Assembly: GCF_009914755.1 (NCBI RefSeq)
Contig: NC_060941.1
From: the human T2T-CHM13v2.0 reference genome, Homo sapiens
Direction: 5' to 3' (one strand)
DNA: 64,000 nucleotides
How positions within the stretch are numbered: position 1 is the stretch's first letter; every line of letters starts with the position of its first letter. Both the position numbers and the translations under genes were made by a program. This document shows, piece by piece, positions 981 through 10,790 of this stretch. The notes below the pieces were generated by a model. That model saw only the letters and a program-made list of their open reading frames with translations, was not told the DNA's origin and did no database searches.

Positions 981-3715
981 TCATCTATGAAGACATACAT
1001 AGACTGAAAGTGAAGGGATGATAAAAGATATCCTATGCAAATGGAAACAAAAAAGCAGGAGTAGCTATAATACTTAGACAAAATAGACTTTAAGATTAAA
1101 AAAAGATAATTGTATAATGAGAAAAAAGTAAACAGCAGCCTAACAATTATAAATGAATATGCAACCAACACTGAAGCATCTAAATACAGAAGCAAATATT
1201 CACAGGCCTTAAAGGATAGATGGAATGCAATACAATAGAATACCTCAACACTCCACTATAATCAACACCCTACTATTGTCAATGGACAGATCATCCAGAC
1301 AGACATCATTAGTTCAGTAGCACATGAATTATTCTCCAACACAGACTATGTGTTAGGCCAAAAAACAAGTCTCAGCACAATTTCAAAAACTGAATTCATA
1401 TCAAGTATCTTTTCTAACCACAGTAGAATAGTGTTAGAAATCAGTAACAGGAGAAACTTTAAAACCTGTACAAATATATGGAAATTAAAATACAGGGTCA
1501 TGAACAACCAATGGAAAAAAAGGAAATTAAATGTTTATTGAAACAAGAATAGAAACACAACATAACAAATCCTGTGGGATGCAGCAAAGGCAGTTCTAAG
1601 AGGAAAAGGGCATAGCTATAAATGCCTTCATCAGAAAAGTAGAAACATCTCAAATAGCCAACCTGACAGTACACCTCCAGTAATGAGAAAAACAAAAAAA
1701 ATTCAAATGCTAGAATCAGTAGAAAAAATATCATAAAGATTAGGGCGGAAATTTTAAAAACAGAAACAAAACATACAAAAAGTCAATGGAACAAAGAGCT
1801 GGGGTGATTTAGAAAAAAAAAATCAAAATTGACAAGCTTTAGCTAGACTAAGGATAAGAAAAAGAAACAAAACCATAGATGAAAAAGCAAACATTACAAT
1901 TAAACACAAAAATACAAAGGATTGTAAATGATTACTAAAGACGTTTATATACAAACTGAAAAATCTAGAAGTGCTTCAATTTCTAGACACATAATGAATT
2001 CCCAAGATAGAATGATAAACAAAAAACCTGAACAGACCAATAATGAGTAATGCAATTAAAGCAGTAATAAAAAGTCTCCCAGCAAAGAAAAACACAAGAA
2101 TCATGGTTTTACTGCTGAGTTACCAAGCATTTTTTAAAGAGCTAATACCAATTCTACTCAAAATGTTCCCCATAAAATGAACAGGAGAGAAGGCTTCGAA
2201 ACTTGTTCTATGAGGACAGCATGACCCTGGTACAAAAACCAGAGCAGGACACAACACACAAAGACAACCACAGGCATTTTAAATAACCCTGATGAACACA
2301 GATGCAAAAAGTCCTCAACAAAATACTTGAAAATTGCATTTGACAACACAATAAAATGATCATGTGCCATGATCAAGTGAGATTCATCCCGGGAATATGA
2401 GGATGATTCAATAAACACAAATAAATGTGTAACATCACATTCAGTGAATCAAGAAAACACATAAATCATTTAAGTAGATGCTGAAAAAAAAATCATTTCT
2501 TCATAGAAACTCAACATGAGTACAGAAGGAACATGTCTCAGTGCAATAAAGGCCATATATGACAAACCCACAGCTAACATCATAATCAATGGAGAAAAGT
2601 TAAAAGCTCTTCCTCCAAGATCTGGAACAAGTATGGCTACTTTTACACCACTTTCATTCATCATAGTACTGCAAGTCCTAGCTACAGCAATTAGACAAGA
2701 GAGTGCAATAAAAAGCATCCAAATTGGAAAAAAAGGAAGTCAAATTTCGTGTTTGCAGGTGACATAAACTTATACATATCTAGAGAGAGAGAGAACCCTA
2801 AAAATTCCACAAAAATCCTACTAGAAATAATAAATTTAGTCAAGTTGCAAGATACAGTATCAACATATAAAAATGAGTAGCATGCCCATGCACCAATAGC
2901 GAAATACCTAAGAAAGAAATCAAGAAAGCTATTTCATTTCAAAAAAATATATATCTAGGGATAAACTTAACCAAGAAGGCAAAAGATACCACAATGAAAA
3001 CTATAAAACACAGATGAAAGATATTAAAGCAGACATAAGTAAATGGAAAGATATCCCATGTCCATGCACTAGAAGAATATTGTTAAAATATCTATATCAA
3101 CCAATGGGATCTACAGAATCAATGCAATCCATCTTAAATTACAAAAGACATTCTTAATAGAAATAGAAAAAACCATCCTAAAATTCATACGGAAATGCAA
3201 AATAACTCAGACAGACAAAAGAAATAAAATGAAAAGTTGGAAGCATCACACTACCTGATTTCAAAATATACTACAAATCTATAGTACGCATGGTACTATC
3301 AAAACAGCATGGTACTATCAATAAAAAGGGCGGGGGAGAGACAGAGATGAACAAATGACAGACAAGTGAAGCACAATACACAAATCAGGAATAAATTCAT
3401 GCATTTATTGTCAACCTATTTTTAACAAAGGCACCAAGAACACACATTTGGGAAGGACAATATCTTCAATAAACTGTGCTAGGAAAACCCAACACCCACA
3501 TGTACAAGAATCTATCTAGGCCGTTATCTTACCATATACAAACATCTACTCAAAATAAAGATTTAAATGTAGGACCTGAAACTATGAAACTACTAGAGAA
3601 GAAAACATAGGATAAATGCTTCATGAAACTGGAGAAGACGAGGAATTTTCAAATAGACATCAAAAGCACAAACAACAGCAAACATGTAATTACATTAAAC
3701 TTAAAAGCTTCTGCA

Positions 3716-4007
3716 GGCTGGGTGCAGTGGCTCATGCCTGTAATCCTAGCACTTTGGGAGGCCGAGATGGGCGGATCACGATGTCAGGAGATTGAGACCA
3801 TCCTGGCTAACATGGTAAAACCCTGTATCTACTAAAAATACAACAAATTAGCTGGGCGTGGTAGTGTGCACCTGTAGTCCCAGCTATTCAGGAGGCTGAG
3901 GCAGGAGAATGGCATGAACCCAGGAGTCGGAGCTTGCAGTGAGCCAACACCACGCCACTGCATTCCAGCCTGGGCAACAGAGTGAGACTCCGTCTCAAAA
4001 AGAAAAA
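3716..4007 (+). mobile_element. AluY-like SINE
   Basis: Dimeric Alu with Y-type diagnostics (GAGACCATCCTGGCTAAC, GAATGGCATGAACC, GAGCTTGCAG); imperfect TSD AAAAGCTTCTGCA/AAAGGCTGCTGCA. Confidence 0.93.
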
Positions 4008-4051
4008 GGCTGCTGCAAAGCACAGGAAGCAATCAGTAGAATGAAGAAACA

Positions 4052-4365
4052 GGCTGGGTGCAGTGGCTTACGCCTGTACACTCAGCACTTTGGGAGGCTG
4101 AGGCACGCCGATCACAAGGCCAGGAGATCAAGACCATCTTGGCTAACACAGTGAAACCCCGTCTCTACTAAAAATACAAAAAAATTGTCCGGGCGTGGTG
4201 GCAGGCACCTGCAGTCCCAGCTATTCAGGAGACCAAGGCAGGAAAATGGTGTGAACCCAGGAGGCAGAGCTTGCAGTGAGCTGAGATTGTGCCACTGCAC
4301 TCCAACCTGAGCGACAGAATGAGACTCCATCTAAAAAAAATTAAATTAAATTAAAAATTTTTAAA
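4052..4365 (+). mobile_element. AluY-like SINE
   Basis: Full Alu with a 12-bp TSD AATGAAGAAACA at 4040-4051 and 4366-4377. Confidence 0.94.
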
Positions 4366-4499
4366 AATGAAGAAACAACCCAGAGAATGGAAGCAAGTAT
4401 TTGCAAACTATGCATCAGGCAAGGGATTCATGCACAAAATATATGAAGATCTCAGACTATTCAAAAACAAAAATACAAATGATCTTATTTAAAAAATCT

Positions 4500-5725
4500 A
4501 CTCAAAACCATTGTCCCCCACCATTATTTCCCTACCTTCTTTTCCCGAGCACCTTTGGCCCCCTTCCCCTCGCCACCCTTTTTCTTCCATCTGCCCCCAA
4601 ACTTCTTCACCATTTTTTTCCCCACCATCATTTCACAAAGCCTTCTCTACTCTCCTGCTCAACACCTTTTCCCCATCCATTTACCCAAACCCCTTCCCCA
4701 CTGTTTCTTCCCACCATCTTTTCCCCTTATCCCTGGCCACCCTTTTTCCCCCTCCTGCTCTCATCACCCTCTTTTGCTCCTTCATCTAAGCAAAAACATT
4801 TTCCCCCATCTTTTCCCAAAACCTTCTCCCCACTCCTACTGCTCGCCACCCTCTTTTCCCCCTTCATCTACCCAAAAACTCTTTTCTTCATCGTCTTTCC
4901 CCCCGTTCCTCCTTGCTATTCTCTTTCCCTTTTCCATCAACCCAAAAACATTTCCCCCCATCTTTTCACACAGCCTTCTCCCTACTCCTGCCTACCTCCC
5001 TCTCTTCCTTCTCCATCTACCCCCCAAAACTTTTCCCACCATCTTTTCAAAGTCTCCCCCCTTTACCACTCATGCTCTTCTTTTCCCTATCCTGCTTGCC
5101 ACCCTCTTTTTTGCCCTCCATCTACACCAAACTATGTTTCCGTCGTTTTCCCAATCCTCTGTGCCTGCTCCCTCTGGCCACCCTCTTTCCTCCTCCTCAT
5201 CACCCTCTTTCCCCCACCATCTATCAAAACACTTTTTACCCACTGTCTTTCCTTTCTCCACCATCTTTCTTTTCTGCCACTGTCTTTTCACAAAACCTTG
5301 TCTTCCTCCTGCTGGCTACCCTCTTTTTCTTTCTCCCACTTGCTACCCTCTTTTGCTCCTCTACCCAAAAACTTTCCCCCACACTGTATTTTCTCCCCAC
5401 TGTCTTTTCACAAAGCCTTCTCTCCCTACTGCTCGCCCCCCTTTTCCCCCATCACCTTCCTCTCTTTCCTCCTCCCACTTGCCACCCTCTTTTCCCCCTC
5501 CATCTACCCTGAAACTTTTTACCCACCGTCTTTCTGCAAAACCTTCCTTCCCTCCCGCTCCCCACCCTGTATTTCCGCCTCCATTTACCCAAAAACTTTT
5601 TTCCCCACCATCTTTTCGCCGCCATCTTTTTGCAACGCCCCTTCTCCGGCTAAGCTATCCTTTTCTGCCTTTGGCACTAACTACCCTCTTTACTCCCCTC
5701 CATCTATCCCAAAACTGTTTTCCTT
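4500..5725. repeat. Degenerate pyrimidine-rich minisatellite (about 12 units of 70-140 bp); + strand very G-poor
   Basis: Anchor CATCTACCCAAAAAC or variants near 4588, 4678, 4783, 4865, 4935, 5014, 5119, 5218, 5359, 5501, 5582 and 5701, with recurring GCCACCCTCTTTT and CAAAGCCTTCTC. Confidence 0.85.
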
Positions 5726-5916
5726 CTCCTACCGCTCCAGCCGCACTCCTATCTCCGTCGCTGCCAACAACCGCAGCGAGGCGAGCCGCGCTCCCGCGGC
5801 TCCAGCCTCCAGCATACGGCCACTGACTCCTGATTCCTAGTCCTCCATGCCGTGGAGCGAGCAACTCAACGGGAAGACACAGGAACCTGAAAACACCTGA
5901 CTGCTCTTCAGCATCA

Positions 5917-6160
5917 TTTATATACTGCGGCTATGCCCACGGAGGTTCCTGGACTGCATGTTTTGATTGGATGAGAAAAAACCTCCAGGCTTACTCTGAT
6001 TGGACTTTATGATCATGTTCTGATTGGATGAGAGCAAGTCTTAACACAACCAATCACAGCATGAAAATAAAGTCCAATCAGAGTAGGCCTAGAGGTTTTT
6101 CTCTCATCCAATCAGAATATGTAGTCCAGGAACGGCATTTGCATAACCTCGGTATATAAA
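5917..6160. promoter_or_regulatory. Palindromic bidirectional core promoter: TATA(-)/3x ATTGG/3x CCAAT/octamer/TATA(+)
   Basis: TTTATATA 5917-5924; ATTGG 5966, 5999, 6023; CCAAT 6050, 6074, 6108; ATTTGCAT 6137-6144; TATATAAA 6153-6160. The TATA and CCAAT elements are symmetric about 6038.5. Activity is not shown by sequence alone. Confidence 0.7.
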
Positions 6161-6529
6161 GCATGGTGAGGTCGCATCAGGTCATTTCAGGCTCTGCTGT
6201 GTCAAGTCGGGGAGCGGCTCTTTGCTCAGCTTAGAGAACTGGAAGAGGCCGCAACCTTCTGCCTGCTGGAGGCTGGAGGATGGATGGAGCCTGGAGCCTG
6301 GGACACTACCTTGCTGTGGTTGGTGGTGGCGACAGAGCAGTAAGAGGGTGGCCGGCAGCAGGAGCTTGTCCTGCTGGGCTGGAGGACTAGGAGAAGGAAG
6401 AGGCACCACCACATGCTGGAGGCTGAAGCCTGGAGTCTGTGCCACCATGGCTCGCCTCGCTGTGGTTGGTGGTGACGCTGGAGACTGCAGCTGGGCCACA
6501 GTGGTAGAAATGTGATGGGGTAGGTGAGT

Positions 6530-7175
6530 TTTCTGGGCTGCCCTGTACGCTTCTGGGGGCAAGGGTTGGGTGTCCTTTTGGTGATCACTGCTAGAGGCCA
6601 CCCTGCCTGTGTCAGTGGTCTGGTTGGGGGCACTCTCCAGGGTTGCATTGCTGGTAGTGGGGCAGGTTGGCTGGCTATCTGGGGCTATACTGCCTGCGGT
6701 GGCAGGGGTGGTGGGGGGAGGCAGATTGTGTACAGTAATGTGTGCTGCTGGTGGCTGGTGAAGGATTAGGGGCACTATCTTCTGCTGCACTGCCCACAGC
6801 AGGGGGTGGGTTGGGTGGAGTTATCTGGGTCTACAATGCTGGCAGTGGGGGGTGGTTTAGGGGCATTGTTGGGTGCTGCACTGCCTGTGACTGGGGGGTG
6901 CACCATCAGGAGCTGAACTGCCCGTGATGGGGTGGGGGGAGGCGGGTTTGGGATGCTATCTAATGCAGCAACACCCGTGGCTGGGTCAGATTGTGGGCAC
7001 TATTGGGTGGTACACTCCCTGAGGTGTGGGGGGAGTGCTTTGGGGGGGGGGCATTGGGGTTACATTGCCTGAAACTGTAGGGTGTGTTGGATGTGCTATC
7101 CGGGGGCTACACTGCTAGTGGCAGGGGGCAGATTAGGGGTGCTATGGGGGCTACACTGCCAGCAGCATTGGTGAG
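6530..7175 (+). repeat. Degenerate G-rich minisatellite with many G-runs (G-quadruplex-prone)
   Basis: Recurring GGGGC(A)CTATCTGGGGCTACACTGC(T/C)...GGCAGGGGG-like units; long G tracts, e.g. at 7042-7051. Confidence 0.7.
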
Positions 7176-7756
7176 CTGAGGAGGTGGCAGCAGCAGCGAC
7201 AGCAGTGGTCTCCTTCTTCTGGTGGCCTCCAAGTAAGAGATCGTTCTCCTCTTCCCGGACTCCAGACTCTAGAAGGCAATTTTCTCCCGCTCGAGCTAGA
7301 TTGCACGGCAGGGCCCCCACACCCACTGTGGTTTCCCAGCCTGCCGTCATGCTCTGTGTTGCAAAGACCACCTAGGACTACTGGGCAGGGACTAGTAGGC
7401 ACCATGGGGGAAGTTGGGGACAGGGCACTGTGGGTGGAGGTGTCAGGAATGGGAACCAGCCCTTGGGTGGGGAGGGCTGGCTGGGTCTGAGTTTCTCCTA
7501 CTTGGGTTCCCCGAGAAGGGCAGGCTTGGTGGACCCAGCAATTCCTGGCCAGCTGGACTTGGCCAGGGGCCAGTTTCAGTGAAGGCATTCACTCTCTCCC
7601 CAGGCCCCAGTTCCTGGCCAGCTTTTGCCAGAAGGAGAGGCTGGACTTTGGAAGGTGGGTGTGAGTGCCTTCAATGAAACGGATCCCTGCCACCTAGTCA
7701 CCAGCGTGACAAGATGAGGCTCTAACGGTTCCACTCCCTGAGTCCTGTCTTGGGCT

Positions 7757-7840
7757 TTTCTGGCTTTGCCTGCCCAACTGCTCCAAGCCAGGCTGAAGGA
7801 GGAGAAGGAGGAGTCACCTGTGGTACGGTCGAGCAGATGA
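7757..7840 (+). pseudogene. BAGE-homologous coding fragment with no in-frame ATG
   Basis: Translates [27 protein letters not shown], versus recalled [40 protein letters not shown]; in-frame upstream TGA at 7739-7741. Confidence 0.65.
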
Positions 7841-8658
7841 TGTGGCTCTGCAGCTTGCCTCATGTGTTTGGTGGTGGTGATGGAGACCGCAGCTCAACTG
7901 GAGCAGTAGGAGGGCACCCACGGGGACCAGGCGGTAGGATCCTGGTAGGGTGGGCTGATACATTGAGGGTGACAGTGGTTGTATTGGCATTGGTGCTAGT
8001 GGTGGTAGCAGTAGGAAGTCTGGGGAACGGGAAGCGGGAGTAGGAGCACTGCAGGGCCTATCCCATTCTGGGGCGGGGAGGAAACTTTAGGTGCTGTAAC
8101 GAAGGCCTTGGTGGCAGTGGTGGTGGTACATCTAGGGCAAAGAGGAGTCCTCCCCCTTTTCCTGCAGTCTCTGGAGGGTGCCCTCCTCCTGCTGGTGCCT
8201 GAGCTAGGCATGAGTAGCAGCATTATCTCATTCTTAACAAAATTTAGGGGGTGACTATTTGTGTATCCTTTTGCTTGTTTTTTGTTGTGATACTCTGGGA
8301 GTTACTCAAATTTTATGAATGGAGGAGGGGATAAAAGGTATCATAATAGGCCTTCTAATTCCCACACCTGTTCTTTTTCCTTTCTTCCATTGTGTATTTT
8401 CTTCTCATTTTCTTGTTCCTCTTCATTTTCTTTTGCTACTGCTTCTGTCTCATGTTTGTATTCTTGTTTCTCCTCCTGTTTTTGTTTTTGTTTTATACCA
8501 AGCAACGGCCTTAACACACCAAAACTGAGTTGAAAATAAAATACTTGTCACTGTTGTATTTTTTAAATAACTGATCCCTTACTATGTTTTAGAAATGAGG
8601 AAAAAAGTCAGTTGTATAATTAGTTACTTGAATAGCTATGCTTTCATAATCGTGTTAA

Positions 8659-8783
8659 TGCACTTATGCCTAGTGTTCCATTATTGGGACATTACTTATA
8701 TCCTACTGCTAAATGTCATCAACAAGGTCTGATTTTTCACTTATGCAAAAATTCAAAAAATGGCAACCTCTGGCATAAATGGG
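8659..8783 (+). mobile_element. MER85 non-autonomous piggyBac (PGBD3-derived) MITE
   Basis: TTAA at 8655-8658, then ..ACTTATGCCTAGTGTTCCATTATTGGGAC..TATATCCTACTGCT..CAAGGTCTGATT..GCAAAAATTCAAAAAATGGCAACCTCTGGCATAAATGGG, then CTAA (degenerate TTAA). Confidence 0.88.
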
Positions 8784-9714
8784 CTAATGCATTGTAAGTG
8801 TTATTCAAGGAATCAAAAAATGAAGCATCACATAAAATATTAGTAGCAAACAGCCATTTCATCTCTCTCACATATTTTTTCTGGAGCTATGGAGGAGTCA
8901 CAGGGGTAATAAGTTCTAATTTATGAGATGATTAAGTGAACCATATTCCCTTCATTTTTTTTCTCTGCCACCATTTTCAAGAGTATTGTCATCTGCATGA
9001 GCAAACCTGGTTTATCACCACATCTTTGCAAGAGGAAAAAGAAAGGGGGAGAATCATGTATAACGTTGTAAGGCAAAGATTCACAACCAAAAACAAGGTT
9101 TTATTAACTTTCGCCTTTAAGAACCTTCAGTGTTTAGCCCTCTTTGATTCCTAGTATTACTACCTTTGGTATGAACTCTTTTTTTAAACTGATCCACTCT
9201 AGAAGTTTATGCATTTTGTATCATTTTTCAAGCCAACAGAAATGTGTAAGGCCTATAATTCTGACATTTTTAGTTATTTTTAAGGCTGTGAGCATGTAAG
9301 ATAGTGTTCATATATGGAAGAATATGTATAAATACCACTAGGTAGCTTATTTTGAAGAGATAGTATCTAAATTTTTGTCCAGAGTAGATTGGTTGCAGTT
9401 TCTTAGGTGTGTCTCTTAATACGTTGCCTCAATGTTTTAAAGCATGTAGAAATTTGAACACAGTTTAACTTCATATAGTCCTTTGTTTATAGGTTTAATA
9501 CTTCTAAAGACTGAAGACATCACAGCTCCCTTTAAGATTCAGTAATATTAATAAAATTTTAGAAATATAGGGTTAGAATCCAACAAATTCAGAGGAAAAT
9601 TGTTAAATTATATAGCTGTAGAGCAGGAATGAAACCCAGGTTCTAAGCTCTAAGGGGGCCATGAGGTACCATACAGGTGCATCAGTGACTGGGCATAGAT
9701 TCAGCAAAATTACA

Positions 9715-9815
9715 GGATGGTTAAGAGAGTGAGCTGTGGAGCCCAACTCTATGTAAACATGAATTTTTAAACTGCATGGTGCCTCAGTTTATCCATCTTT
9801 ACAGTGGGGACTGTA
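9715..9815 (+). mobile_element. MIR fragment
   Basis: GGTTAAGAGAGTGAGCT...GCCTCAGTTTATCCATCTTTACAGTGGGGA matches the MIR core pattern. Confidence 0.55.
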
Positions 9816-9839
9816 GTTAAGTTTTTCTCCTCAGTTGTC

Positions 9840-10790
9840 TGTCTTGTTGCCACTGTTCCCTAGTCTGTCTTGTTACCACTCAGTGCCCACATGAGAGGAT
9901 CTAAGGTAATTTCTGACAGGCTGGGACTCCTTAAAGAAAAATAGAAGGTGCTACAAAACCCATTTTAGGAGAAACTTCTGTTGTCCTCATGGAACCTCAA
10001 GAACTTCAGGCAGACAGGTCTCTCAAACTCTAAGGCTCTCCTCTGTTTTGCTTTGCGTTATCTGACCTTTTAAGTTTGGGTGGGAATCAGAAATCAGTCA
10101 GGGAGAGAGATCTAGAGAAAGTTGTGGATATGAAGATGTATTTATGTTAAGAAAAGTTGTGAAGCAAAGAAATGTTATATAAGAGAGGATCTTGTATGGC
10201 AAATTTTTGTCCTAAAGTAGAATGACTAATTATGAAAGAGGGAAATAAAGGAAAAGTCAGAAAGTTCATGTCATAGATGGTCTGTGGAAGTTGCGTTAGG
10301 GTTCATAAAATGAGAAAGAAAAACTTACAACTGCTAGATCTTTTCCTGTCTAGAAGTGTTGTGTATGTGATGTATATATAAAGGAGCCCTAATTACTTGG
10401 CTTAGAAGAAAAGGAAGGTTCTTAAATATTTTGTCAGAAAAATAGAAGCTCTAATGCCTTTTATTTCACATGACTTCAGTAATCTTTGGGAAATAAAGAC
10501 AGTGTTAAAATCATTGGTAAAAAAACATCAAAATTTATCCATTTTGTCTAATTTAAGTCAGAGGTTAAATTTTAGAAGTGCTTTAATGTCACAAATTGTT
10601 TGACTTCGGAAAATTGTTCTGTTTACCTGGTTTGGAGCTGTTCAATTTCTAGGTAAGGGCTGGGGACAGGTGGAATTAGCCATGTCTCCTGGCTATGCTG
10701 GAAAGAGTCAGACTTTACCTACAGTTCTGTCTTGTATCCTATACGCTGCACCTGGTACGTTATTAAAACTTCCTGCTGCTTCTAATCTCT
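9840..10790. mobile_element. ERV1 (MER4-group-like) internal fragment
   Basis: Motifs such as CCCACATGAGAGGATCTAAGGTAATTTCTGAC and TAATCTTTGGGAAATAAAGACAG resemble recalled MER4-group internal sequences; subfamily and orientation uncertain. Confidence 0.45.

What the first reader, a model, noticed from the sequence alone, without database searches (positions are those of the whole stretch)
5725..6490. Self-symmetric bidirectional promoter: a palindrome with 3+3 CCAAT boxes and two divergent TATA boxes
Seen in sequence: 5945-6030 matches the reverse complement of 6047-6133 at about 87% (10 mismatches and 1 gap by hand alignment). ATTGG at 5966/5999/6023 mirror CCAAT at 6108/6074/6050, and TTTATATA 5917-5924 mirrors TATATAAA 6153-6160 about the same axis (6038.5). 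The symmetry continues more loosely past the TATA boxes: CAGGTGTTTTCAGG on minus versus CAGGTCATTTCAGG on plus, GGAGGACTAGGA on both arms, and the GCTGGAGGCTGGAG..GCTCGCCTCGCTG unit on both arms. Established: clustered CCAAT boxes bind NF-Y in either orientation. Inference: a head-to-head duplicated promoter cassette that could fire both ways and produce two paralogous 5' RNAs. It is probably the REP522-type pericentromeric repeat, normally masked as junk but possibly acting as a portable germline/cancer-testis promoter.
Basis: partly seen in the sequence, partly recalled or inferred. Interest (0 to 1): 0.85.

Follow-up and report, generated by a model that had tools for sequence, protein, structure and literature searches.

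The report
Palindromic CCAAT promoter core of REP522
This is the centre of one copy of a known human repeat with about 60 copies, almost certainly REP522; its two mirror-image halves each carry three CCAAT boxes and an outward-facing TATA box, and the family is already reported to supply promoters that switch on in cancers.

Summary
Window 5945-6030 pairs with 6047-6133 at 75 of 85 positions with one gap. The wider palindrome folds 17 sd better than shuffles. Three ATTGG and three CCAAT boxes and two outward TATA boxes sit symmetrically about 6038.5.

It is not unique. T2T-CHM13 holds at least 59 copies, mostly pericentromeric, acrocentric or in segmental duplications, each inside a shared unit of 3 kb or more.

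The family is very probably REP522. That repeat is described in print as about 1.8 kb, largely palindromic, and strongly enriched among cancer-activated CAGE promoters. The identification is indirect, through miR-5701 loci on chr15.

RefSeq places the first exon of lncRNA LOC105371703 (5733-5880, minus strand) 37-44 nt downstream of the left TATA box. The right arm has no annotated transcript here.

What may be new: the 189-bp CCAAT core is the slowest-evolving part of the unit (median identity 0.936 against 0.82 for other windows). All six boxes survive in 25 of 40 copies, while exact TATA boxes survive in only 16 and 18 of 40. The arms show no compensatory change.

Verdict: a known repeat-borne promoter. 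NF-Y binding and firing in both directions are inferred, not shown. Interest is low to moderate.

The parts
5945..6030 (.). Left arm of the conserved palindrome core
   Evidence: Pairs with 6047-6133 at 75 of 85 positions with 1 gap. With the right arm it forms the slowest-evolving 189-bp window of the unit.
6031..6046 (.). 16-nt unpaired centre; symmetry axis at 6038.5
   Evidence: (I1: 16 nt between the arms).
6047..6133 (.). Right arm of the conserved palindrome core
5964..5970 (-). Outer left CCAAT box (CCAATCA on the minus strand)
   Evidence: The pentamer is intact in 38 of 40 copies.
5997..6003 (-). Middle left CCAAT box
   Evidence: Intact in 38 of 40 copies.
6021..6027 (-). Inner left CCAAT box
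   Evidence: Intact in 35 of 40 copies.
6050..6056 (+). Inner right CCAAT box
   Evidence: Intact in 29 of 40 copies.
6074..6080 (+). Middle right CCAAT box
   Evidence: Intact in 39 of 40 copies.
6108..6114 (+). Outer right CCAAT box
   Evidence: Intact in 38 of 40 copies.
5917..5924 (-). Left TATA box (TATATAAA on the minus strand)
   Evidence: Exact in 16 of 40 copies. It changes at 2.0 steps per site against about 3.3 in neighbouring columns.
6153..6160 (+). Right TATA box (TATATAAA)
   Evidence: Exact in 18 of 40 copies and deleted in 11. It changes at 1.88 steps per site against about 3.1-3.5 in neighbouring columns.
6137..6144 (+). Octamer ATTTGCAT just upstream of the right TATA box; right arm only
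   Evidence: Present in only 12 of 40 copies, so it is specific to a subfamily.
5733..5880 (-). First exon of lncRNA LOC105371703 (NR_135673.1), with a GT donor read from 5732-5731
   Evidence: Hub gene table. The donor trinucleotide is kept in at least 32 of 40 copies. CpG observed/expected is 1.32 in 5700-5799.
6179..6339 (+). Predicted mirror-image first exon of the right arm (not annotated), with a GT donor at 6340-6341
   Evidence: Inference from symmetry. The A at 6179 lies 26 nt after the first T of the TATA box. GT at 6340-6341 is kept in at least 34 of 40 copies.
6262..6480 (+). Two tandem copies (spacing about 146-150 bp) of the GCTGGAGGCTGGAG...GCTGTGGTTGGTGGTG unit; the left arm has one copy (5753-5815)
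   Evidence: Direct repeats D11, D12 and D14 and inverted repeats I2, I9 and I13; axis shift.
4400..5700 (.). C/T-rich degenerate tandem repeats forming the left flank of the shared repeat unit
   Evidence: Composition is C 42%, G 6%. Repeat families D2-D6. Homologous in most copies.
6500..7700 (.). G-rich degenerate tandem repeats forming the right flank; a compositional mirror of the left flank
   Evidence: Composition is G 37%. Repeat families D1, D7 and D8. Homologous in most copies.

Best explanation
Window 5725-6490 is the centre of one copy of a dispersed human low-copy repeat, very probably REP522.

Anatomy. The centre is an old, imperfect inverted duplication. A 189-bp CpG-free core carries six CCAAT boxes of the CCAATCA type, three facing each way and spaced 24-34 bp apart. 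On each side there follows an outward-facing TATA box about 45 bp beyond the outer box, then a CpG- and G-rich first exon of about 150-160 nt ending in a GT donor.

Proposed mechanism (inferred). The CCAAT cluster is bound by NF-Y and acts as a shared upstream element for two divergent core promoters. The outer box sits about 70-95 nt upstream of each start. The element is normally silenced by DNA methylation and H3K9me3, and fires when that silencing is lifted (cancer, 8-cell embryo).

What is shown and what is not. In this copy the left promoter is documented by the RefSeq lncRNA LOC105371703. The right one is predicted only. The palindrome is inherited rather than selected for pairing. What is kept is the sequence of the CCAAT core.
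For: Anatomy:
- The palindrome and motif positions are confirmed.

Family:
- Forty loci match 5880-6200 on both strands at 75-94% identity.
- A 30-nt core pattern gives 78 matches against 0 for the reversed control. I count 57 loci in that table by hand; with L012 and L023 the total is at least 59.
- Homology spans at least 4380-7700.

Constraint on the core:
- Median pairwise identity to the window copy is 0.936, against a median of 0.82 for 44 other 189-bp windows. None of the 44 is as high. By subfamily the counts are 0 of 44, 0 of 42 and 1 of 38.
- Parsimony steps per site are 1.07 in the core, 3.66 in the near flanks and 3.08 in the far flanks over 39 copies. At non-CpG columns they are 0.90, 2.76 and 2.59. 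In 16 well-aligned copies they are 0.275 against 0.587. No background window is as low (0 of 268 and 0 of 274).
- CCAATCA columns change at 0.71 against 1.16 for spacers (p 0.004). The six boxes are intact in 38, 38, 35, 29, 39 and 38 of 40 copies, and all six in 25 of 40.
- TATA columns change at 1.9-2.0 against about 3.1-3.5 in neighbouring columns.

Transcription:
- The RefSeq exon 5733-5880 (minus strand) begins 37-44 nt past the left TATA box (hub table).
- Mirror-image GT donors are kept in at least 32 and at least 34 of 40 copies.
- This copy has CpG observed/expected 1.32 in that exon.

Identity and activity, from passages read:
- It is up-regulated at the 8-cell stage (PMC6545021) and enriched in lncRNA exons (bioRxiv 10.1101/189753).
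- A REP522-rich locus carries H3K9me3 in human liver but H3K4me3 and Pol II in Tc1 mouse liver (PMC3560060).
- hsa-miR-5701 overlaps Rep522 (bioRxiv 10.1101/2021.12.09.471935) and lies at 15q11.2 (PMC9365560).
- The reverse complement of its printed target site GACAAUAA (bioRxiv 10.64898/2026.05.26.727855) sits in the inner palindrome arm of two chr15 copies and one chr22 copy, out of the 57 loci.
Against: - No CAGE, ChIP or methylation data could be consulted. NF-Y and TBP binding and right-arm initiation are therefore inferences.
- No transcript is annotated on the right arm of this copy, and its CpG observed/expected is only 0.26-0.35.
- Exact TATA boxes survive in only 16 and 18 of 40 copies. 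A subfamily of about 12 copies (L028, L030-L040) has lost both.
- The sequence around the predicted starts is not conserved (3.65 steps per site).
- REP522 identity rests on an indirect literature chain, not on a RepeatMasker or Dfam match.
- The constraint signal is moderate. The best other window reaches 0.903 identity. In the most diverged subfamily one window (4715-4903) is as conserved as the core (0.879 against 0.865).
- Far-flank values from the 39-copy multiple alignment are inflated by misaligned tandem repeats (compare).
- The core's A+T-rich, CpG-free composition may lower its mutation rate somewhat.
Confidence: 0.68

Rival explanations
1. The palindrome matters as an RNA hairpin. 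Read-through transcripts fold into a long stem that is diced into small RNAs (miR-5701-type), and that is why the core is conserved.
For: The core folds into a long stem. Rfam miRNA models give sub-threshold hits across 5972-6104 on both strands. hsa-miR-5701 is reported to overlap Rep522 (bioRxiv 10.1101/2021.12.09.471935, passage). The complement of its printed target site lies in the inner arm of the chr15 copies L045 and L046.
Against: There is no compensatory evolution. In 35 distinct sequences, 89.4% of cells pair, equal to the shuffled mean of 89.4 (265 of 500 shuffles as high). Nine pairs change on both sides against 7.7 expected. The best Rfam hit scores 41.7 bits against a gathering score of 100. 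The seed-matching 8-mer is present at this position in only 3 of 57 loci, and not in the window copy. The element's own TATA boxes point away from the hairpin, so its own transcripts would not contain it. The preprint lists miR-5701 among putative miRNAs that overlap repeats.
Confidence: 0.07
2. It is an inert relic. An old inverted duplication of a promoter was copied about by segmental duplication, and the motifs persist only by descent and low mutability, with no present function at most copies.
For: The element travels inside larger duplicated blocks. The core has no CpG. The TATA boxes and the octamer decay freely. The ATG in Kozak context at 6447 is kept in only 9 of 40 copies, and no open reading frame is shared.
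Against: The core is less diverged than every other window overall (0 of 44). The effect holds at non-CpG columns (0.90 against 2.6-2.8). The C/T-rich left flank is also nearly free of CpG, yet it is 12-20% diverged. A RefSeq transcript starts at the left arm. Published CAGE places REP522 among the most cancer-activated promoters (PMC4896275).
Confidence: 0.15
3. The CCAAT cluster works mainly as a chromatin element, not a promoter. An NF-Y array that displaces a nucleosome would act as an enhancer, boundary or accessibility site in pericentromeric heterochromatin, and transcription would be a by-product.
For: Conservation is centred on the 189-bp core, not on the TATA or start regions. The subfamily without TATA boxes keeps the boxes; eight of its 12 members are among the 25 copies with all six intact. 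The six boxes at 24-34 bp spacing cover about the length of one nucleosome.
Against: No occupancy or accessibility data are available. The one direct observation here is a transcript start (hub table), and the published evidence is CAGE promoters (PMC4896275). TATA columns are still more conserved than their neighbours.
Confidence: 0.1

Closest known systems
REP522 (RepeatMasker 'Satellite/telo'; an unclassified interspersed repeat)
   Same: Print describes it as about 1.8 kb, largely palindromic and a source of cancer-activated CAGE promoters (PMC4896275). It occurs in pericentromeric chr21 (PMC3560060), is enriched in lncRNA exons (bioRxiv 10.1101/189753), and overlaps miR-5701 (bioRxiv 10.1101/2021.12.09.471935). 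The element here is palindromic, multi-copy, has several chr21 copies, starts a lncRNA, and its chr15 copies carry the miR-5701 seed match.
   Different: No alignment to the REP522 consensus could be made. The unit shared among copies here is at least 3.3 kb, longer than 1.8 kb. PMC6545021 calls REP522 mostly telomeric, whereas these copies are mostly pericentromeric, acrocentric or interstitial. I could not see whether the CCAAT/TATA anatomy or the constraint on the core is already in the full 2016 paper, which is not held.
NF-Y-driven promoters carried by repeats, such as LTR12 / ERV9 long terminal repeats
   Same: It is a repeat-borne promoter with several CCAAT boxes, silent in most tissues and reactivated when epigenetic silencing is lifted. 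[quoted passage not shown]
   Different: It is not a retroviral LTR. It has no polyadenylation or U3-R-U5 layout. It is palindromic with two outward promoters, and it spread with segmental duplications rather than by retrotransposition.
Cellular bidirectional promoters with CCAAT boxes, including divergent histone H2A-H2B promoters (recalled)
   Same: It has two outward TATA boxes about 230 bp apart sharing central CCAAT boxes. One arm also has an ATTTGCAT octamer just upstream of its TATA box, as in H2B promoters.
   Different: It is a true sequence palindrome. There is no histone or other conserved open reading frame on either side. The octamer is present in only 12 of 40 copies and on one arm only. 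The second start is not annotated here.
MIR5701 (miRBase hairpin at 15q11.2)
   Same: The chr15 copies L045 and L046 carry the complement of the printed miR-5701 target site in the inner palindrome arm, between the inner and middle CCAAT boxes.
   Different: The window copy lacks that 8-mer in the core. Pairing is not maintained by compensatory change. No Rfam family reaches its threshold.

Membership tests
REP522 repeat family | Significant alignment to the REP522 consensus or Dfam model | not testable with these tools
   No RepeatMasker, Dfam or Repbase library is available. Rfam holds no such model.
REP522 repeat family | About 1.8 kb, largely palindromic (PMC4896275, abstract O12) | tested here: met
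   There is sequence symmetry over 5726-6364. Mirror-image base composition and inverted tandem repeats extend over roughly 5000-7050. The length agrees only roughly.
REP522 repeat family | Dispersed multi-copy repeat, including pericentromeric chr21 | tested here: met
   There are at least 59 loci on 13 chromosomes. On chr21 the copies lie at 7.88, 9.10, 10.71, 11.72 and 11.86 Mb.
REP522 repeat family | Overlaps hsa-miR-5701 loci at 15q11.2 | tested here: met
   The complement of the printed target site lies in the core of the chr15:18.86 and 19.73 Mb copies (papers). Only the 8-nt seed comes from print.
NF-Y-dependent CCAAT promoter | CCAAT pentamer in the extended NF-Y context (consensus recalled, not from a call) | tested here: met
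   All six boxes read CCAATCA, followed by G or C.
NF-Y-dependent CCAAT promoter | Box about 60-100 nt upstream of the transcription start (recalled rule) | tested here: met
   The outer left box at 5966-5970 is 86-90 nt from the RefSeq start at 5880. The outer right box at 6108-6112 is 67-71 nt from the predicted start at about 6179.
NF-Y-dependent CCAAT promoter | NF-Y occupancy in cells | not testable with these tools
   No ChIP data are accessible.
Bidirectional promoter | Two divergent transcription starts less than 1 kb apart | tested here: inconclusive
   The minus-strand start at 5880 is annotated (hub table). No plus-strand transcript is annotated. A mirror-image TATA box and GT donor are present.
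miRNA precursor | Hairpin whose pairing is preserved by compensatory change, or a match to a curated family | tested here: not met
   Pairing is 89.4%, equal to the shuffled mean (265 of 500). The best Rfam score is 41.7 bits against a gathering score of 100.
Histone H2A-H2B divergent promoter | Flanking histone coding sequences and a conserved octamer | tested here: not met
   There is no histone-like open reading frame. The octamer is present in 12 of 40 copies.
Cruciform-prone AT-rich palindrome (PATRR type; features recalled) | Near-perfect arms with no spacer | tested here: not met
   The arms are 87-89% complementary and have a 16-nt spacer.

The most novel reading that the evidence does not exclude
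The 189-bp core with six CCAAT boxes is under purifying selection in most of the roughly 60 copies, independently of the TATA boxes. On that reading REP522 would be more than a cryptic promoter unmasked in cancer. It would be a host-maintained array of NF-Y sites, about the size of one nucleosome, that opens pericentromeric and acrocentric heterochromatin at a defined time. The 8-cell embryo or the germline are candidates. The lncRNAs and miR-5701-like small RNAs would be read-outs.
Probability: 0.25. Interest if true: 0.6.

Novelty: already known. Interest (0 to 1): 0.3.

Why it matters
The main idea, a palindromic pericentromeric repeat that serves as a portable promoter awakened in cancer, has been in print for REP522 since 2016. 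The finding therefore does not open a new class.

- a base-level anatomy: 3+3 CCAATCA boxes, two TATA boxes and mirror-image first exons with GT donors;
- a census of at least 59 copies in a complete genome;
- evidence that the CCAAT core, rather than the TATA boxes or the hairpin, is what evolution has kept;
- evidence that the annotated miRNA gene MIR5701 is simply the centre of two such copies.

If the constraint holds in orthologue comparisons, these elements have a host function that is still unnamed.

Tried and rejected
- BAGE link. PMC3560060 places a large REP522 region at the chr21 BAGE locus. I tested whether family copies on chr21 (L008 at 9.10 Mb, L032 at 11.72 Mb) abut sequence derived from chr7q36, which by recall is the origin of BAGE. 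None of the four 10-kb flanks matched chr7 near 153 Mb. No BAGE-like open reading frame stood out within 1.5 kb of the core in five copies (judged against a recalled protein). The link is therefore not shown, and is not excluded at larger distance.
- Rfam. Only sub-threshold generic hairpin hits were found.
- Coding potential. No shared open reading frame was found. The ATG at 6447 is kept in 9 of 40 copies.
- Selection for the hairpin was rejected.
- A histone-type promoter origin was rejected.
- The 39-copy multiple alignment overstated far-flank divergence because tandem repeats misalign. I replaced it with pairwise window identities, which weaken the contrast but do not remove it.
- Sources not available. 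The full papers Kaczkowski 2016 and Horie 2017 are not held.
- Searches for prior description. 'REP522' returned 14 papers, and none of the passages read describes the CCAAT/TATA anatomy. 'NF-Y' + 'CCAAT' + 'pericentromeric' + 'segmental duplication' returned 0 papers. The 6 papers mentioning LOC105371703 appear, from their titles and abstract starts in the listing, to be association or database listings; their texts were not opened.
Full report
**Observation**

- ATTGG starts at 5966, 5999 and 6023 and CCAAT at 6050, 6074 and 6108. TTTATATA starts at 5917 and TATATAAA at 6153. The two 14-mers and the GGAGGACTAGGA pair are where stated, within one base.
- A local alignment of the reverse complement of the left side against the right side gives two core blocks. 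6030..5977 pairs with 6047..6100 at 47 of 54, and 5976..5946 pairs with 6102..6132 at 28 of 31. That is 75 of 85 with one gap. The alignment continues more loosely to 5726 / 6364 (230 of 298, 77%). The repeat finder reports the same arms (I1 54 nt 87%, I4 37 nt 89%, I3 54 nt 72%).
- Folded as single-stranded DNA, 5883-6194 gives -97.5 kcal/mol against -33.5 +/- 3.7 for 100 dinucleotide shuffles (z -17.3, none as good).
- All six boxes have the extended form CCAATCA. The window holds 12 such sites, no more than chance (14.7 +/- 3.7), but six of them lie within 151 bp.
- One correction. The right arm has an extra tandem unit of about 146-150 bp (D11, D12, D14). The outer matches (5764-5847 with 6380-6472) are therefore about a shifted axis.

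**It is a repeat family**

- A search of the window's own assembly with 5880-6200 scored 40 of 66 candidates. It returned 81 matches, which I read as 40 loci, nearly all matching on both strands as a palindrome must, at 75-94% identity.
- The loci lie on chr2, 5, 7, 9, 10, 13, 14, 15, 17, 18, 20, 21 and 22. Most are next to centromeres, on acrocentric short arms, or in known duplication-rich regions.
- A 30-nt stretch of the core, searched with up to 3 mismatches, gave 78 matches against 0 for the reversed control. I count 57 distinct loci in that table by hand. With L012 and L023, whose boxes are mutated, the family has at least 59 loci.
- Most copies are colinear with the window over the whole of 4380-7700, and many continue to about 10,500 on the right. 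So the palindrome travels inside a larger duplicated unit. On the plus strand that unit is C/T-rich to the left and G-rich to the right.

**What evolution has kept**

I aligned the 40 fetched copies and counted parsimony changes per column on a tree built from the flanks.
- L026 has lost part of the left arm. It was dropped and from the rate counts.
- Over 39 copies the core 5945-6133 changes at 1.07 steps per site, against 3.66 in the adjoining 95-bp flanks and 3.08 further out. At columns where no copy has a CpG the values are 0.90, 2.76 and 2.59. None of 268 background windows is as low.
- In the 16 copies that align end to end the values are 0.275 against 0.587, and 0 of 274 windows is as low.
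- The multiple alignment misplaces tandem repeats in the distant copies, so I repeated the test with pairwise local alignments of 189-bp windows. Median identity to the window copy is 0.936 for the core. The median of 44 other windows is 0.82 and the maximum is 0.903.
- The core ranks first overall and in two subfamilies (0 of 44, 0 of 42). It ranks second in the most diverged subfamily, where 1 of 38 windows (4715-4903) reaches 0.879 against 0.865 for the core.
- The signal is therefore real but moderate, at 1.5- to 3-fold.
- Within the core, CCAATCA columns change less than spacers in the 39 copies (0.71 against 1.16, p 0.004). The difference is not significant in the 16 copies (0.214 against 0.293, p 0.14).
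- The six pentamers are intact in 38, 38, 35, 29, 39 and 38 of 40 copies, and all six in 25 of 40.
- The TATA boxes fare worse: exact in 16 and 18 of 40. Both are lost in the subfamily L028, L030-L040. TATA columns still change less (1.9-2.0) than their neighbours (about 3.1-3.5), while the predicted start regions do not (3.65).
- The ATTTGCAT octamer at 6137 is in 12 of 40 copies.

**The palindrome itself is not under selection**

On 39 copies (35 distinct) and 85 mirror pairs, 89.4% of cells are complementary, exactly the mean of column shuffles (265 of 500 as high). Double changes occur at 9 pairs against 7.7 expected. The symmetry is inherited from an old inverted duplication. Each arm has since changed on its own.

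**Promoter evidence**

- The hub's RefSeq table places exon 1 of lncRNA LOC105371703 at 5733-5880 on the minus strand.
- The exon ends at a GT donor (minus-strand reading CG|GTAGGA). The donor trinucleotide is kept in at least 32 of 40 copies.
- The right arm has a mirror-image GT at 6340-6341 (GCA|GTAAGA), kept in at least 34 of 40 copies.
- In this copy the left exon keeps its CpGs (observed/expected 1.32 in 5700-5799). The right arm does not (0.26-0.35). That fits an active left promoter and a decayed right one here.
- There is no shared open reading frame. The ATG in Kozak context at 6447 is kept in 9 of 40 copies.

**Identity and what is already in print**

I could not run RepeatMasker or Dfam. 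The following comes from passages I read.
[quoted passage not shown] It cites Cancer Res 76:216, which is not held.
- PMC6925957 cites Horie 2017 for REP522-driven, cancer-specific lncRNAs.
- PMC6545021 reports REP522 up-regulated at the 8-cell stage.
- bioRxiv 10.1101/189753 reports it enriched in lncRNA exons.
- PMC3560060 reports a large REP522 region at the chr21 BAGE locus, carrying H3K9me3 in human liver but H3K4me3 and Pol II in Tc1 mouse liver.
- PMC4240582 gives its RepeatMasker class as Satellite/telo.

The link to this family comes through miR-5701.
- bioRxiv 10.1101/2021.12.09.471935 lists hsa-miR-5701 as overlapping the Rep522 repeat.
- PMC9365560 places miR-5701 at 15q11.2. It reports DNMT3A, MBD1 and HDAC3 at its 'promoter', and a rise on MBD1 or HDAC3 knock-down.
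- bioRxiv 10.64898/2026.05.26.727855 prints its target site GACAAUAA.
- The reverse complement of that site lies in the inner arm of the palindrome, between the inner and middle CCAAT boxes. It does so in two chr15 copies (18.86 and 19.73 Mb; L045, L046) and one chr22 copy, and nowhere else among the 57 loci.

I take this as good though indirect evidence that the family is REP522 and that MIR5701 is the centre of two of its copies.

**Mechanism**

- Shown: the anatomy, the family, the constraint on the core, one annotated start, and the published promoter activity of REP522.
- Inferred: NF-Y binds the six boxes. Their context and their spacing of 24, 27 and 33-34 bp fit recalled rules for NF-Y sites and for joint occupancy. 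The outer boxes lie 86-90 nt from the annotated left start and 67-71 nt from the predicted right start.
- Also inferred: the cluster serves both outward core promoters, and methylation and H3K9me3 keep it silent.

**Rivals**

- A miRNA-hairpin function has low support, for lack of covariation and because only sub-threshold Rfam hits were found.
- An inert relic is weakened and by the annotated transcript.
- A chromatin-opening NF-Y array that is not primarily a promoter stays open, because the core is kept where the TATA boxes are lost.

**Novelty and verdict**

The base-level anatomy, the T2T census, the constraint on the CCAAT core and the MIR5701 identification are additions. I could not check their novelty against the unheld 2016 paper or its supplements. 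Interest 0.3.

Noticed in passing
L045 (chr15:18855300-18858400) and L046 (chr15:19726350-19729450): Two further family copies carry, in the inner palindrome arm, the complement of the printed miR-5701 target site. The miRBase gene MIR5701 at 15q11.2 therefore appears to be simply the centre of this palindrome.
   Followed up: partly
window 4715-4903: A stretch of the C/T-rich left flank is almost as conserved among copies as the CCAAT core. Median identity is 0.885 overall, and 0.879 against 0.865 for the core in the most diverged subfamily. The reason is unknown.
   Followed up: no
window 4410-5840 (+): An open frame of 476 codons runs through the C/T-rich tandem repeats. It is proline-, serine-, phenylalanine- and leucine-rich and of low complexity. 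It is probably a by-product of composition rather than a gene.
   Followed up: no
window 6137-6144: An ATTTGCAT octamer lies 9 nt upstream of the right TATA box, on this arm only and in only 12 of 40 copies. The layout resembles an H2B or immunoglobulin promoter and has arisen or survived in one subfamily.
   Followed up: partly
window 7700-10515: The right-hand flank of the unit also occurs at loci that did not appear in the core search: chr9:106.72, chr2:110.13, chr8:78.6, chr18:11.7 and chr10:43.57 Mb. Some of these regions do hold a core match (chr9:106.72 and chr10:43.57). The duplicated blocks are mosaics.
   Followed up: partly
L041, L042 (chr21:9084675-9107995): The flanks of the chr21 9.10-Mb copy match chr4:33.8 Mb on one side and chr17:16.1 Mb on the other at about 91%. 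This is a typical acrocentric mosaic of transposed segments.
   Followed up: no
window 5700-5799: This copy keeps 11 CpGs in 100 bp (observed/expected 1.32) in the lncRNA first exon, against a family mean of 0.81. The mirror region on the right arm has 0.26-0.29. That hints the left promoter is unmethylated in the germline.
   Followed up: partly
window 3714-4338: Two adjacent Alu elements (period 337, 1.9 copies, 80% match) bound the left end of the homology shared with the chr21 copy.
   Followed up: no
chr5:178354268-178354735 (seen): A head-to-tail array of seven 67-bp units lies next to a chr5 family copy. Each unit is 92% identical to a single 66-bp stretch beside the chr21 copy.
   Followed up: no
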